NCBI RefSeq assembly: GCF_003334385.1
Contig: NZ_QOWN01000014.1
DNA length: 64,000 nt
Source: Escherichia coli
GTDB lineage: Bacteria > Pseudomonadota > Gammaproteobacteria > Enterobacterales > Enterobacteriaceae
Reading direction: 5' to 3' (one strand)
The position numbers and the translations under genes are program-made. Within the stretch, counting starts at the first letter, position 1. The number at the start of each line of letters is the position of its first letter. The notes under the pieces were generated by a model that worked only from the letters and a program-made list of their open reading frames with translations, was not told the DNA's origin and made no database searches. Below, piece after piece: positions 11,017-50,742 of this stretch.

Positions 11017-11775
11017 ATGAGCCTGACCCTCACGCTCACCGGCACCGGCGGCGCACAGGGCGTTCCGGCATGGGGCTGCGAGTGTGCGGCCTGCGCCAGA
11101 GCGCGGCGCTCGCCGCAGTATCGCCGCCAACCGTGCAGCGGCGTAGTGAAGTTTAACGACGCAATCACCCTGATCGACGCCGGGCTGCACGATCTCGCCG
11201 ATCGCTGGTCGCCCGGATCGTTCCAGCAGTTTTTGCTGACGCATTATCATATGGATCACGTCCAGGGGCTGTTTCCGCTGCGCTGGGGCGTTGGCGATCC
11301 GATCCCGGTTTACGGCCCGCCGGATGAACAGGGCTGCGACGATCTGTTTAAACATCCGGGCCTGCTTGATTTCAGCCACACGGTGGAACCGTTTGTGGTG
11401 TTTGATTTGCAGGGGTTACAGGTCACGCCCCTGCCGCTCAACCACTCAAAACTGACCTTCGGTTATCTGCTGGAAACGGCACACAGCCGGGTGGCGTGGC
11501 TGTCTGACACCGCAGGCTTACCGGAAAAAACGCTGAAATTTTTACGCAATAATCAGCCGCAGGTAATGGTGATGGATTGCAGTCACCCGCCGCGCGCGGA
11601 TGCACCGCGTAATCACTGTGATTTAAATACCGTGCTTGCGCTGAATCAGGTTATCCGCTCGCCACGGGTGATTCTGACCCATATCAGCCACCAGTTTGAT
11701 GCGTGGCTGATGGAAAACGCACTACCGTCAGGGTTTGAGGTGGGGTTTGATGGGATGGAGATTGGGGTGGCGTGA
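11017..11775 (+). CDS. phnP: Phosphoribosyl 1,2-cyclic phosphate phosphodiesterase PhnP (metallo-beta-lactamase fold)
   Basis: 252-aa ORF with HxHxDH motif ([11 protein letters not shown]). Confidence 0.92.
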
Positions 11776-11794
11776 TGAGAGGGAATGTGCGCGC

Positions 11795-11902
11795 TGGCCC
11801 CCTCACCCTAACCCTCTCTCCAGAGGGGCGAGGGGACCGATTGTGCTCGATATTGAATATTGCGCTCGTTTTCTCCCTCTCCCCATTGGGGTGAGGGGCG
11901 AT
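11795..11902. repeat. Two GC-rich imperfect palindromes, not REP-type, in the convergent phnP/yjdP spacer
   Basis: CCCCCTCACCCTAACCCTCTCTCCAGAGGGGCGAGGGGACC (about 11798-11839) and TTCTCCCTCTCCCCATTGGGGTGAGGGGCGA (about 11869-11900); arms CCCTC…/…GAGGG are self-complementary. Confidence 0.6.
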
Positions 11903-11921
11903 GCCTGCTCCATACCCAACC

Positions 11922-12251
11922 TCATCGCCCATACTCATCTTCCATTCTCCGCTCTTCATCCTCCAGTTGCCGACGCTCCTGATCAAGCTGGCGCTGGCGA
12001 TCGTCCAGCTGCCTGCGGCGATCTTCAAACTGGCGGCGGCGGTCGTCATATTGTCTGCGCCGATCGTCGCTCACTTCACGCTGCCAGCCGTCGTCGCGCG
12101 AATCTTCATAGTCTCGCCCACGGTCAGGGTTATAAGCGTCATTAATCGCCTGCTGAATATTGCCAATGGTGTCGTCGATAATATCGGCCTGGGCCGGAAC
12201 GGTGGACAGCGTGAGCAGGGTGAATAAAAGAAATAGCGGAAAGCGTTTCAT
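11922..12251 (-). CDS. yjdP: YjdP, small secreted highly charged low-complexity protein
   Basis: 109-aa ORF MKRFPLFLLFTLLTLSTVPAQA… followed by DDRRRQYDDRRRQFEDRRRQLDDRQRQLDQERRQLEDEERRMEDEYGR. Confidence 0.8.
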   Translation of the reverse strand: MKRFPLFLLFTLLTLSTVPAQADIIDDTIGNIQQAINDAYNPDRGRDYEDSRDDGWQREVSDDRRRQYDDRRRQFEDRRRQLDDRQRQLDQERRQLEDEERRMEDEYGR

Positions 12252-12319
12252 TAGCCAACCTCAAAAAGAAACTCTATCCACATTAATCATTACTCATCCA
12301 TGCAAGTAGTGGATGAATC

Positions 12320-12769
12320 TCAATTTCTCCGCTGCTCTATTGCCGTAATCGCCTCCACGCGTTGTTGATGACGACCGCCTTCGTACTGTGCGCCCAGCCA
12401 CGCATCCACAATCATTTTTGCCAGTTCGAGGCCAACCACTCGTGAACCAAAAGCCAGCACGTTGGTGTCGTTATGCTGCCGCGAAAGTTGCGCGGAATAA
12501 GGTTCGCTACAGACGACCGCGCGAATTCCGGCAAACTTGTTCGCCGCTATCGAAATACCGACGCCAGTACCACAAATCAAAATCCCGCCATCAACCTCTC
12601 CGCCAGCAACAGCCAGTGCGACTTGACTGGCGTAATGTGGATAATCAGTACGCTCTGACGACCAGGTTCCTTTATCAATCACTTCAACGCCACGCTCAAC
12701 TAAATGTGCCACTATTTCATGTTTTAAAATGAAACCGACATGATCACAGCCAAATGCAATCTTTTTCAT
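12320..12769 (-). CDS. rpiB: Ribose-5-phosphate isomerase B / allose-6-phosphate isomerase
   Basis: 149-aa ORF MKKIAFGCDHVGFILKHEIVAHLVERGVEVIDKG… (RpiB/LacAB family). Confidence 0.93.
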   Translation of the reverse strand: MKKIAFGCDHVGFILKHEIVAHLVERGVEVIDKGTWSSERTDYPHYASQVALAVAGGEVDGGILICGTGVGISIAANKFAGIRAVVCSEPYSAQLSRQHNDTNVLAFGSRVVGLELAKMIVDAWLGAQYEGGRHQQRVEAITAIEQRRN

Positions 12770-13127
12770 TCATCTTCCCCGTCCGTGCAAAACTTCACAA
12801 TCAAAAAACATTTGTGATGTTAATGAATTAAAAACACCCAAAATCGATGAATTACGCCTTCCTGATCTGTTTTACAGAGTTACATCTGACAGCGCAATAG
12901 CGTTAAAGACACTCACCATCCAGCAACATCTATCATCTAAAAAACCAGAAAAACAAATAACATCATGTTTTTAAACTAATTAAATGAAATAAAATTTTAA
13001 GCCACTCGCCATTGTTCACAATAAAATAAACTTTATAAATTTTATTTTTTTGTGAAGTCGCCAGCATCTTTTCTGTTCTTGCTGTGGTGATATAGTGGCG
13101 TCTTCAATTCAAGGACAAGAGAACGTG

Positions 13128-50313: not shown

Positions 50314-50742
50314 TGCTATCAATTTCCTGCCTGTTTATACCCGGCCATTGCAAGGTGAAAACCCTGGGTACCGACGTCTTTAGATAAATCTTACGGTATA
50401 AATAGCACTTTTGCCTGATTTGAAATTGATACCTTTCTAATCGTCACCTGGATGAAAATAATTCATTGATATTCAAAATTAATTTCCTACAGGAATGCAG
50501 AGGCGGCGGGAAGATATGCCCTTAATGCCACTGAAAAACCACATAATCTGTACAGCAATAAAAGTCACGGCCTAATATGGCTAACAAACAATCAATTGTG
50601 ATATAGTTCACAAAATTAATGAAACAAACAGAGTGTTTCATTTTTGTGTTCTGCAAGCCCCGCGATAGCCAGAGTGTACCACGCCTCCCGTGAACAACGC
50701 CGCGCTGTCCAGGGCATCGGCTCTTTTCAGAGGAATTGTTTG

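What the first reader, a model, noticed from the sequence alone, without database searches (positions are those of the whole stretch)
11922..12251. yjdP encodes a secreted protein dominated by charged DDRRRQ-type repeats
After a clear signal peptide, the C-terminal half is almost entirely a degenerate Asp/Arg/Gln/Glu repeat (RRRQYDDRRRQFEDRRRQLDDRQRQLDQERRQLEDEERR). This is unusual for a periplasmic or secreted E. coli protein and suggests an intrinsically disordered polyampholyte or coiled coil. Function is unknown.
Basis: seen in the sequence. Interest (0 to 1): 0.35.

Follow-up and report, generated by a model that had tools for sequence, protein, structure and literature searches.

The report
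YjdP: secreted charged-helix stress protein
yjdP is a real, already catalogued E. coli gene for a small exported protein whose Asp/Arg heptad repeat most likely forms one long, rigid, salt-bridged helix, and whose conserved promoter suggests it is switched on by the Rcs cell-envelope stress system; what it does is still unknown.

Summary
Window 11922-12251 (minus strand) encodes the 109-aa YjdP: a Sec-type signal peptide (cleavage AQA|D), a conserved amphipathic helix, an acidic linker and six DDRRRQL-type heptads.

It is not new. NCBIfam NF041443 is named 'DDRRRQL repeat protein YjdP', and 5405 of 5426 complete E. coli genomes carry the gene.

What I add:
- **The repeat is translated and tightly constrained.** dN/dS is 0.01-0.07 against Citrobacter with dS saturated. 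Six heptads are kept across genera, and common length variants are whole heptads.
- **The charge order fits a helix, not a random coil.** There are 36 opposite-charge against 2 like-charge i+3/i+4 pairs (0 of 20,000 shuffles reach this). AlphaFold2 gives one helix, residues 54-108, with pLDDT about 90. Only one heptad position is hydrophobic. This favours a charged single alpha-helix-like rod over a disordered polyampholyte or a canonical coiled coil.
- **The promoter carries an RcsB-type box.** TGAGA-N4-TCY is invariant in 23 of 23 loci from several genera and always lies 23 nt before a TAnnnT -10. That is the geometry of the rprA RcsB box. It fits the published ~10-fold induction by a LolCDE inhibitor.

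The biochemical role remains unknown. Interest is modest.

The parts
11922..12251 (-). yjdP coding sequence (109 codons plus stop)
   Evidence: ORF list and translation. NF041443 scores 147.9 bits. Annotated as yjdP in RefSeq genomes. Substitutions against 14 orthologues concentrate at codon position 3, e.g. 16/6/53 against C. werkmanii.
12186..12251 (-). Sec-type signal peptide, residues 1-22, predicted cleavage AQA|D
   Evidence: n/h/c regions and the -3/-1 Ala rule. The AxA|D/N site is kept in 13 homologues while the rest of the peptide evolves fast, dN/dS 0.2-1.1. In about 8% of sampled genomes the h-region carries a 9-bp (LFT)n expansion.
12132..12185 (-). Conserved amphipathic N-terminal helix of the mature protein (residues 23-40, DIIDDTIGNIQQAINDAY)
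   Evidence: Conserved as ADIIDDAIGNIQQAINDAY.P across Escherichia, Citrobacter and Trabulsiella, and recognisably in Cronobacter and Buttiauxella. dN/dS is 0.03-0.10. AlphaFold2 gives a helix of only moderate confidence, pLDDT 59-68. Hydrophobic residues are spaced 3-4-3-4 (read from the sequence).
12069..12131 (-). Acidic, variable linker (residues 41-61)
   Evidence: AlphaFold2 gives no secondary structure at 41-53, pLDDT about 52-61. This is the most divergent mature segment, dN 0.16-0.37. Length and sequence vary in distant homologues. Residues 23-61 carry net charge -7.
11925..12068 (-). Six DDRRRQL-type heptads plus C-terminal EDEYGR (residues 62-109); predicted as one long helix
   Evidence: 21-bp tandem period. 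Hydrophobic residues exactly every 7. 36 against 2 favourable i+3/i+4 charge pairs, z = 5.2. Helix 54-108 with pLDDT 87-96. dN/dS 0.01-0.07. Net charge per heptad runs +1, +1, +1, 0, 0, -2, -2.
12259..12262 (-). Shine-Dalgarno GAGG, 7 nt before the ATG
   Evidence: Read from the sequence. G.G is conserved in the upstream alignment of 23 loci.
12280..12285 (-). Predicted -10 hexamer TAATGT (conserved as TAnnnT)
   Evidence: T, A and the final T are conserved in 23 of 23 loci, always 23 nt after the upstream box. The TSS is inferred near 12273 and has not been mapped.
12309..12322 (-). RcsB-type box TGAGATTCATCCAC; its first three bases are the rpiB stop codon
   Evidence: TGAGA-N4-TC(C/T) is invariant in 23 of 23 loci from Escherichia, Citrobacter, Trabulsiella, Buttiauxella and two unnamed enterobacterial contigs, although the upstream genes differ. 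It matches 8 of 9 specified positions of TN(G/A)GAN4TC(T/C)NA and 11 of 14 bases of the Salmonella osmC box TGAGATTTATCCTA (PMC7913699). The inferred position, -49 to -36, equals that of the rprA box.

Best explanation
yjdP is a translated, near-core E. coli gene, restricted as far as found to Enterobacteriaceae. It encodes a small soluble envelope protein of about 11 kDa mature mass, pI about 4.6.

Proposed steps:
1. It is exported by Sec and cleaved after Ala22 (inferred from sequence).
2. The mature protein has three parts. The first is a conserved 18-residue amphipathic helix, the likely docking or self-association element. The second is a flexible acidic linker. The third is a six-heptad Asp/Arg/Gln/Leu repeat.
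3. The repeat folds into one continuous helix of about 55 residues, roughly 8 nm. A dense network of intrahelical i to i+3/i+4 Asp/Glu-Arg salt bridges stabilises it. This makes it a charged single alpha-helix-like rod with a narrow Leu stripe and a basic-to-acidic charge gradient. It is not a disordered chain (predicted, not shown).
4. The gene has its own activator-dependent promoter. An RcsB (or RcsAB) box at about -49 to -36 turns it on when the Rcs phosphorelay senses outer-membrane, lipoprotein or peptidoglycan damage (inferred from the conserved box, its geometry and published induction).
5. In the periplasm the rod most probably acts structurally or protectively, as a fixed-length spacer or a charged binding surface presented by the N-terminal helix. 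This last step is speculation. No partner or phenotype is known.
For: **Real and translated**
- The family HMM scores above its cutoff.
- 5405 of 5426 genomes carry the gene.
- Third-codon-position changes dominate, and whole-gene dN/dS is 0.05-0.27.
- GAGG lies 7 nt before the ATG.

**Export**
- n/h/c regions and AxA are present, and the site is conserved.

**Helix rather than coil**
- AlphaFold2 gives a helix at 54-108 with pLDDT 87-96.
- Charge order is 36 opposite against 2 like i+3/i+4 pairs, 0 of 20,000 shuffles.
- Repeat dN/dS is 0.01-0.07 with saturated dS.
- Six heptads align without gaps in homologues of 40-58% identity.
- Common indels are multiples of 7 residues.

**Not a canonical coiled coil**
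- Hydrophobic residues occur only at i and i+7.

**Own promoter under Rcs control**
- The box and the -10 are invariant in 23 of 23 loci at a fixed 23-nt spacing, whatever gene lies upstream. This holds in O157:H7, where an island replaces rpiB (PMC10128022).
- The box matches the consensus and the rprA/osmC boxes (PMC7913699).
- A LolCDE inhibitor raises yjdP from FPKM 10.6 to 100.6 and 112.3, alongside wca, rcsA, osmB, ivy and yjbEFGH. rpiB is not in the induced lists (PMC5105897).
- The consensus scan finds no sigma-70-type promoter there, as expected for an activator-dependent promoter.
Against: - No protein-level evidence (proteomics, localisation) was found in the searched literature.
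- SignalP was not run.
- AlphaFold2 predicts long helices for coiled coils as well as single helices, so the oligomeric state is open.
- Asp, not Glu, is the main acidic residue in the first four heptads. Asp is rare in known single alpha-helix (SAH) domains, and its salt bridges stabilise helices less. Synthetic AEEEXXX repeats with two or three Arg aggregated (PMC5812594). So a monomeric SAH is not assured.
- The box lacks the terminal A of the RcsB consensus (C in 22 of 23 loci).
- The TSS is inferred, not mapped.
- The LolCDE inhibitor also activates Cpx and sigma-S, so the induction is not Rcs-specific.
- yjdP did not appear in the supplements of four other stress or Rcs papers I searched, which were held only partly.
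- The gene is disrupted by IS1 in some strains and frameshifted in C. koseri, so it is dispensable.
Confidence: 0.5

Rival explanations
1. The heptad region is a homo-oligomeric coiled coil. In a leucine-zipper-like register with Leu at d, the residues would be g = Arg, e = Asp and a = Arg. Alternatively it is an antiparallel pair in which the basic N-terminal heptads face the acidic C-terminal ones. YjdP would then act as a dimer or trimer.
For: - The hydrophobic period is exactly 7 residues over six heptads.
- With Leu at d, g = Arg and e = Asp could form interhelical salt bridges (read from the sequence).
- The charge gradient from +1 to -2 per heptad would favour antiparallel pairing.
- Arg-rich AEEERRR-type repeats self-associate in vitro (PMC5812594).
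- The linked-tandem AlphaFold2 model keeps both long helices at pLDDT up to about 90, with pTM 0.45 against 0.34 for the monomer.
Against: - Only one of seven positions is hydrophobic. The other core position would be Arg in every heptad, which gives Arg-Arg layers in a parallel dimer or Leu-Arg layers in an antiparallel one.
- The charge order is optimised for intrahelical i+3/i+4 pairs.
- The tandem model is not informative. Overall pLDDT is 61, the N-terminal helix falls to about 40, no PAE or coordinates were returned, and Foldseek found no coiled-coil hairpin match.
Confidence: 0.25
2. The C-terminal half is an intrinsically disordered, well-mixed polyampholyte. It would act through bulk charge, for example as an ion or pH buffer, a hydrophilin-like protectant or a decoy for cationic peptides. 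Only its composition would matter.
For: - 67% of residues are charged and kappa is low, 0.04-0.12, as for a well-mixed polyampholyte.
- Asp is a poor helix former (PMC5812594).
- The computed charge of the mature protein switches from -8 at pH 7 to about +19 at pH 3. An acid-triggered change of state is therefore conceivable.
- No fold match was found.
Against: - Sequence, not just composition, is conserved. Repeat dN is 0.03-0.05 while dS is saturated.
- The order of heptad identities and the number of heptads are kept across genera.
- Common indels preserve the heptad phase.
- AlphaFold2 gives a helix at pLDDT 87-96.
- Gly is 4.6% of the mature protein, below the 6% hydrophilin criterion as I recall it.
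Confidence: 0.12
3. yjdP induction under envelope stress is driven by sigma-S or CpxR rather than RcsB. The conserved upstream element would then be something else: a site for another NarL/FixJ-type regulator, a -35-like TTGAGA, or an anti-Shine-Dalgarno CCTCC.
For: - The LolCDE inhibitor induces Cpx and sigma-S genes as well.
- TTGAGA matches TTGACA at 5 of 6 positions.
- Many species have CCTCC in the box.
- The terminal A of the RcsB consensus is absent.
- A CsiR-induction dataset lists yjdP as mildly repressed (PMC5217608).
Against: - No conserved -10 lies 16-18 nt after TTGAGA. The conserved TAnnnT is 32 nt away.
- CCTCC is not invariant. E. coli has CATCC or CATCT, whereas TGAGA-N4-TCY is invariant in 23 of 23 loci.
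- No GTAAA-N5-GTAAA CpxR-type repeat is visible in the 70 bp (my reading; the consensus is from memory).
- Position -13 is T, not the C favoured by sigma-S (from memory).
Confidence: 0.2
4. The ORF is not a real gene. The repeat would be non-coding repetitive DNA, or one of the long overlapping ORFs on the plus strand (11901-12227 or 11735-12145) would be the real product.
For: Several long ORFs overlap on both strands, as is usual for GC-rich repeats.
Against: - Substitutions fall on the third codon positions of the yjdP frame, which are first positions of the 11901-12227 plus-strand ORF.
- dN/dS is far below 1.
- The SD and ATG are conserved.
- A curated family model matches.
- The transcript is detected and induced.
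Confidence: 0.02

Closest known systems
NCBIfam NF041443 / Pfam PF28054 'DDRRRQL repeat protein YjdP'
   Same: The window protein is the namesake member. It scores 147.9 bits over the full model, and all homologues carry PF28054.
   Different: Nothing differs. The family is defined by sequence only and has no assigned function.
Charged single alpha-helix (SAH / ER/K) domains, e.g. in myosin VI/X and DBHS proteins
   Same: - A long helix made mostly of charged residues plus Gln.
- A 7-residue charge period.
- Dense i to i+3/i+4 opposite-charge pairs.
- No i, i+3/i+4 hydrophobic seam.
- Such domains act as rigid spacers or springs (PMC5812594).
   Different: - Asp rather than Glu dominates the first heptads, and Arg is the only base. 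Both are atypical for SAH domains.
- One Leu, Phe, Tyr or Met occurs in every heptad.
- The protein is free, exported and bacterial, not a connector between two domains.
- Monomeric helicity has not been shown.
Leucine zipper / two-stranded coiled coil
   Same: Leu-type residues lie exactly every 7 positions over six heptads. Possible g-e' Arg-Asp pairs exist.
   Different: The second core position is Arg in every heptad (read from the sequence). This fails the a/d hydrophobic rule.
RcsB-activated promoters with a box next to the -35 region (rprA, osmC)
   Same: - The box TGAGATTCATCCAC fits TN(G/A)GAN4TC(T/C)N.
- 11 of 14 bases are identical to the Salmonella osmC box.
- The inferred position, -49 to -36, equals that of rprA.
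- The -35 is weak (TACTTG).
- yjdP is induced together with Rcs genes.
   Different: - The last consensus base is C, not A.
- RcsB binding, the TSS and rcsB dependence are untested.
- RcsB homodimer and RcsAB heterodimer sites cannot be told apart by sequence here.
Small alpha-helical periplasmic stress proteins (Spy / CpxP / ZraP, LTxxQ family) and Rcs-induced periplasmic proteins (Ivy, MliC, YmgD)
   Same: They are small, Sec-exported, helical, and induced by envelope stress in the same dataset.
   Different: No LTxxQ motif and no Pfam match to those families were found. There is no sequence or fold similarity to any solved structure.

Membership tests
YjdP family (NF041443 / PF28054) | Whole-protein HMM score above the curated cutoff of 90 bits | tested here: met
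   147.9 bits, E = 8.9e-44, model positions 1-101 of 101. PF28054 is precomputed on all 120 listed homologues. The local Pfam-A scan gave no significant hit; PF28054 did not appear in it.
Sec (SPase I) signal peptide | Basic n-region, hydrophobic h-region of about 10-15 residues, small residues at -3 and -1 | tested here: met
   The n-region is MKR. The h-region is FPLFLLFTLLTLSTV with mean hydropathy 2.06. The site is A-Q-A|D. AxA|D/N is conserved in 13 homologues. SignalP was not available.
Sec (SPase I) signal peptide | Experimental cleavage and periplasmic location | not testable with these tools
   No proteomic or localisation report was found.
Bacterial lipoprotein (SPase II) | Lipobox L-[AS]-[GA]-C | tested here: not met
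   The 109-aa protein contains no cysteine.
Tat signal peptide | S/T-R-R-x-F-L-K twin-arginine motif | tested here: not met
   The n-region is M-K-R-F-P with no RR.
Charged single alpha-helix (SAH/CSAH) | Dense i to i+3/i+4 opposite-charge pairs over at least 28-49 residues | tested here: met
   36 opposite against 2 like pairs in residues 61-109, z = 5.2, 0 of 20,000 shuffles. Charge autocorrelation is -0.33/-0.35 at lags 3/4 and +0.47 at lag 7.
Charged single alpha-helix (SAH/CSAH) | Composition up to about 80% Glu/Lys/Arg, with Asp rare | tested here: not met
   Residues 61-109 have 16 Arg, no Lys and 17 acidic residues, most of them Asp (read from the sequence). Glu + Lys + Arg is under half of the residues. 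Asp is rare in SAH domains (PMC5812594).
Charged single alpha-helix (SAH/CSAH) | No hydrophobic seam (no i, i+3/i+4 hydrophobic networks) | tested here: met
   Within the heptad array (residues 62-103) hydrophobic residues occur only at 68, 75, 82, 89, 96 and 103, all 7 apart. The terminal Tyr107 lies 4 after Met103.
Charged single alpha-helix (SAH/CSAH) | Monomeric and helical in solution | not testable with these tools
   AlphaFold2 gives a helix at 54-108 with pLDDT 87-96, but this does not separate a monomer from an oligomer. The linked-tandem model is inconclusive.
Canonical coiled coil | Hydrophobic residues at both a and d of the heptad | tested here: not met
   There is one hydrophobic position per heptad. 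The residue 3 and 4 positions after each Leu is Arg in heptads 1-5.
Direct RcsB target | RcsB box TN(G/A)GAN4TC(T/C)NA (PMC7913699) | tested here: inconclusive
   TGAGATTCATCCAC matches 8 of 9 specified positions; the terminal A is C. The core is invariant in 23 of 23 loci. The full consensus alone is expected 2.2 times per 64 kb by chance, so the weight rests on conservation and position.
Direct RcsB target | Box placed next to the -35 region, as in rprA (-49 to -36) | tested here: met
   A fixed 23-nt gap to a conserved TAnnnT puts the box at about -49 to -36. The TSS is inferred, not mapped.
Direct RcsB target | Induction by Rcs-activating stress, lost in delta-rcsB | not testable with these tools
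   Induction of 9.5- and 10.6-fold by a LolCDE inhibitor is published. rcsB dependence has not been reported, and Cpx and sigma-S are also active in that condition.
CpxP/Spy/ZraP (LTxxQ) periplasmic stress proteins | Match to the LTXXQ Pfam models | tested here: not met
   No such hit appeared in the Pfam-A scan. The best hits have E >= 0.048 and are to unrelated helical families.
Hydrophilins (criteria recalled from memory: Gly > 6%, high hydrophilicity) | Gly content above 6% | tested here: not met
   4 Gly in 87 mature residues, 4.6%.

The most novel reading that the evidence does not exclude
YjdP is an Rcs-induced, free periplasmic 'molecular rod'. It would be an Asp/Arg-based single alpha-helix whose length of six heptads, about 8 nm, is under selection. 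That length is similar, from memory, to the Lpp coiled coil that sets the outer-membrane to peptidoglycan distance. When lipoprotein trafficking or the outer membrane is damaged, the rod would dock through its N-terminal amphipathic helix. It would then act as a spacer, or as a charge-patterned clamp on an anionic envelope polymer or partner. It might also switch state when its 28 carboxylates are protonated in acid. This would be the first SAH-type element with a function in the bacterial periplasm.
Probability: 0.1. Interest if true: 0.6.

Novelty: already known. Interest (0 to 1): 0.3.

Why it matters
The gene and its repeat are already in the curated databases, so the finding as stated adds nothing new.

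It is still a near-universal E. coli gene of unknown function, a 'y-gene'. The analysis here makes it testable in two ways:
- **A specific regulatory prediction.** A conserved RcsB-type box sits at the rprA-like position, with defined bases to mutate.
- **A specific structural prediction.** The repeat should form a length-conserved, salt-bridged helix rather than disordered low-complexity sequence.

If both hold, YjdP would join the set of small periplasmic Rcs effectors. It would also be an unusual Asp/Arg example of a single-helix rod outside eukaryotes. If they fail, it remains an ordinary uncharacterised small exported protein.

Tried and rejected
- **Local Pfam-A scan:** no significant domain. 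The best hit is DUF7900 at E = 0.048; these are helical-bias matches.
- **Weak NCBIfam matches** (FlbB collar protein, RNase Y, MutS2): E >= 0.003, far below their cutoffs, and rejected as charged-helix composition matches.
- **PDB sequence search** with the mature protein at E <= 1: nothing.
- **Foldseek against PDB** with the monomer and the linked-tandem model: no hit with E < 1. A lone helix carries no fold information.
- **Linked-tandem AlphaFold2** (mature-(GGGGS)5-mature, 11-sequence alignment), meant to probe dimerisation: pTM 0.45, mean pLDDT 61, and the N-terminal helices drop to about 40. No coordinates or PAE were returned, so it is inconclusive.
- **Rfam** on 11500-12800 at E <= 1: nothing.
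- **Consensus promoter/terminator scan:** no sigma-70 promoter before yjdP and no terminator after it on the minus strand.
- **Reading TTGAGA as a -35 hexamer:** rejected, because there is no conserved -10 at 16-18 nt.
- **Reading CCTCC as an anti-SD element:** rejected, because it is not conserved in Escherichia.
- **A functional link to phosphonate metabolism:** yjdP lies tail-to-tail with phnP even in homologues of 40-57% identity. I treat this as inherited position only. The genes converge, so they cannot be co-transcribed.
- **Literature:** 'yjdP' occurs in 7 papers, two of them about rice. 'b4487' and 'DDRRRQL' gave nothing relevant. Supplement searches in four further papers gave nothing.
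- **Fraction of genomes with the 5-heptad allele:** the protein database shows the 102-aa form on at least 1000 contigs. Among complete genomes it is only about 18 of 5406 records.
Full report
**1. What is there**

Window 11922-12251 on the minus strand is a 109-codon ORF. It lies between phnP (11017-11775, plus strand, convergent) and rpiB (12320-12769, minus strand, upstream). rpiR/alsR follows at 13095. This is the E. coli K-12 phn-yjdP-rpiB region, and MG1655 matches the ORF at 100%.

NCBIfam NF041443, 'DDRRRQL repeat protein YjdP', matches at 147.9 bits against a cutoff of 90. RefSeq annotates the gene under that name in 5405 of 5426 complete E. coli genomes. The database homologues carry Pfam PF28054. 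So both the gene and its repeat are already catalogued, but no function is attached. The searched literature mentions yjdP only in lists.

**2. Is it translated?**

Yes, by comparative evidence.
- Against 14 orthologues, substitutions concentrate at third codon positions of the yjdP frame, for example 16/6/53 against Citrobacter werkmanii.
- Whole-gene dN/dS is 0.05-0.27.
- Those third positions are first positions of the long overlapping plus-strand ORF 11901-12227. That ORF and the other overlapping ORFs are therefore by-products of the repeat.
- GAGG lies 7 nt before the ATG and is conserved.
- The transcript is detected and induced in published RNA-seq.

I found no protein-level evidence.

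**3. Anatomy**

*Signal peptide (residues 1-22).* The n-region is MKR, the h-region has 15 residues, and the site is A-Q-A|D. The peptide evolves fast (dN/dS 0.2-1.1), but the AxA|D/N site is kept in all 13 aligned homologues. There is no Cys, so it is not a lipoprotein, and no RR motif, so it is not a Tat substrate.

*N-terminal helix (residues 23-40, DIIDDTIGNIQQAINDAY).* This is an amphipathic helix with hydrophobic residues spaced 3-4-3-4. It is strongly conserved.

*Linker (residues 41-61).* This is an acidic segment of variable sequence and length, without predicted structure.

*Repeat (residues 62-109).* It reads DDRRRQY DDRRRQF EDRRRQL DDRQRQL DQERRQL EDEERRM EDEYGR.
- The DNA has a 21-bp period.
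- The hydrophobic residue recurs exactly every 7 positions.
- Net charge per heptad falls from +1 to -2.
- The mature protein is about 11 kDa, with pI 4.6 and net charge -8.

**4. Disordered, coiled coil or single helix?**

Four results argue against a generic disordered polyampholyte.
- The repeat is the most constrained part of the protein. dN is 0.03-0.05 and dN/dS 0.01-0.07 against Citrobacter, while dS is saturated.
- Each heptad keeps its own identity and order across genera. Homologues of only 40-58% identity (Cronobacter, Buttiauxella, Entomohabitans and unnamed contigs) align to the six heptads without gaps.
- Common length variants are whole heptads. There are five in a rare E. coli allele and eight in an E. 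albertii protein. Out-of-phase indels are singletons.
- AlphaFold2 predicts one continuous helix at residues 54-108, with pLDDT 87-96.

The order of charges is far better for intrahelical salt bridges than chance allows. There are 36 opposite-charge against 2 like-charge i+3/i+4 pairs, z = 5.2, reached by none of 20,000 shuffles.

A canonical coiled coil needs hydrophobic residues at both a and d. Here only one position per heptad is hydrophobic, and the residues 3 and 4 positions later are Arg.

The best fit is therefore a charged single alpha-helix-like rod of about 55 residues, roughly 8 nm. It is an atypical one. Asp and Arg replace the usual Glu and Lys, Asp is rare in known SAH domains, and Arg-rich synthetic heptads aggregate (PMC5812594). 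Self-association therefore remains a live alternative. A linked-tandem AlphaFold2 run did not settle it. No solved structure resembles the protein by sequence or fold.

**5. Variation among strains**

Heptad number is nearly fixed in E. coli. Only about 18 of 5406 records are at least 95% identical to the 102-aa, five-heptad allele.

Unexpectedly, the common length polymorphism lies in the signal peptide instead. A 9-bp unit (CTG TTC ACG, encoding L-F-T) is expanded to give genes of 339, 348, 357 and 366 bp. These encode 112-121 aa, with up to (LFT)6 inferred from the 366-bp gene length. The expansion appears in about 5 of 60 systematically sampled genomes in each of two searches.

The gene is interrupted by IS1 in some strains. 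It is frameshifted in C. koseri. It is therefore dispensable.

**6. Distribution and context**

A profile-free scan of 1.84 billion representative proteins found only 53 hits, many of them fragments. Named members come from Escherichia, Shigella, Citrobacter, Trabulsiella, Cronobacter, Buttiauxella, Entomohabitans and a Klebsiella MAG.

In every context examined, yjdP is convergent with phnP at the end of the phn operon, while the upstream neighbour varies. It is rpiB in K-12, a hybrid histidine kinase of island OI-167 in O157:H7, and a nitroreductase or a transporter elsewhere (PMC10128022). Convergent genes cannot share a transcript, so I read this as inherited position.

**7. Regulation: the new lead**

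Because the upstream gene differs between lineages, the promoter must lie in the short spacer. I aligned 130 bp upstream of the ATG from 23 loci. It shows only four conserved islands:
- TTGAGAwTCcTCC
- a TAnnnT hexamer
- the SD
- the ATG

In all 23 loci the 14-mer box TGAGA-N4-TC(C/T)NN starts 71-73 nt before the ATG. It is followed after exactly 23 nt by TAnnnT. With that hexamer as the -10, the box spans about -49 to -36.

The RcsB homodimer box defined structurally is TN(G/A)GAN4TC(T/C)NA. The rprA box (TGAGACGAATCTGA) lies, by my count within the -53 to -33 fragment, at -49 to -36. The Salmonella osmC box is TGAGATTTATCCTA (PMC7913699). The K-12 yjdP box TGAGATTCATCCAC (window 12309-12322, overlapping the rpiB stop codon) matches 8 of 9 specified consensus positions and 11 of 14 bases of the osmC box. 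The -35 region (TACTTG) is poor, and the generic sigma-70 scan finds no promoter there. Both fit an activator-dependent promoter.

Independently, a LolCDE inhibitor raises yjdP from FPKM 10.6 to 100.6 and 112.3, among classic Rcs genes (wca, rcsA, osmB, ivy, yjbEFGH, ymgD/G). The authors attribute that response to Rcs, Cpx and sigma-S. rpiB is not in the induced lists (PMC5105897).

I therefore predict direct RcsB (or RcsAB) activation. The caveats are these:
- The last consensus base is not matched.
- The full consensus by itself is expected about twice per 64 kb by chance.
- The TSS is inferred.
- The induction is not Rcs-specific.

I did not find this link described in the searched library.

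**8. How it most likely works**

*Supported here by sequence analysis or structure prediction:*
- a translated gene under strong purifying selection;
- a signal peptide with a conserved cleavage site;
- a length- and sequence-conserved charged heptad helix;
- a conserved RcsB-type promoter architecture.

*Inferred:*
- Sec export to the periplasm;
- a salt-bridged single helix;
- RcsB activation during envelope stress.

*Speculative:* the role itself. The conserved amphipathic N-terminal helix is the obvious docking or self-association element. The rod could be a fixed-length spacer or a patterned charged surface.

**9. Verdict**

The feature itself is already known and named, so novelty is low and interest modest (0.3). 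The useful outcome is two concrete, cheap experimental predictions for a near-universal E. coli gene of unknown function.

Noticed in passing
window 12195-12221 (codons 11-19 of yjdP); loci L023:401-757 and L024:401-739: There is a 9-bp tandem repeat (CTG TTC ACG, encoding Leu-Phe-Thr) inside the signal-peptide h-region. K-12 has degenerate copies. Other E. coli, including the sampled strain MNCRE44 (L024), carry (LFT)3 to about (LFT)6, giving 112-121-aa proteins. About 5 of 60 sampled complete genomes carry an expansion. The h-region grows from 15 to as many as 24-27 residues, which might alter targeting or cleavage.
   Followed up: partly
window 11796-11898 (between the yjdP and phnP stop codons): Two G/C-rich palindromic repeat units are present: CCCTCTCTCCAGAGGGGCGAGGGG and CCCTCTCCCCATTGGGGTGAGGGG, with inverted arms. 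They correspond to the hairpin/G-quadruplex ('HPGQ') intergenic repeats listed for yjdP-phnP in PMC5100583. The sampled strains L023, L024 and L026 lack them and have only 27 bp between the two genes. They may serve as a bidirectional terminator. No canonical terminator was found.
   Followed up: partly
window 12320-12322; locus L025:1-400: The rpiB stop codon TGA is the first three bases of the conserved RcsB-type box. In O157:H7 the als/rpiB region is replaced by island OI-167 (a hybrid histidine kinase). The box and its 71-nt distance to the ATG are retained, so the island boundary sits immediately upstream of the yjdP promoter.
   Followed up: partly
locus L027:574-1679; hit H1 (NZ_OZ501671.1); locus L022:5001-5400: yjdP is split by an IS1X2 insertion in strain FLI21, and an IS1 lies in the yjdP region of another genome. 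The gene is frameshifted in Citrobacter koseri NCTC10786. It is therefore not essential.
   Followed up: partly
window 11684-12227, both strands: Several long ORFs overlap yjdP: 108 aa at 11901-12227 (+), 136 aa at 11735-12145 (+) and 121 aa at 11684-12049 (-). The codon-position pattern of substitutions shows that at least the antisense 11901-12227 ORF is not conserved as a protein. Gene callers also produce spurious extended or read-through 'YjdP' proteins of 133-184 aa in public data.
   Followed up: yes
loci L028:3849-4181, L029:3828-4169, L030:5001-5342: In homologues of 40-57% identity (Buttiauxella and two unnamed enterobacterial contigs), yjdP still lies tail-to-tail with phnP. In two cases the 3' ends overlap by 4 bp. 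The upstream neighbour is unrelated in each case. The association with the end of the phn operon is thus older than the genus Escherichia.
   Followed up: partly
window 50380-50393: This is the only exact match in the window to the full RcsB consensus TN(G/A)GAN4TC(T/C)NA (TTAGATAAATCTTA, plus strand). One match is within chance expectation (mean 2.2 per shuffle). Its context was not examined.
   Followed up: no
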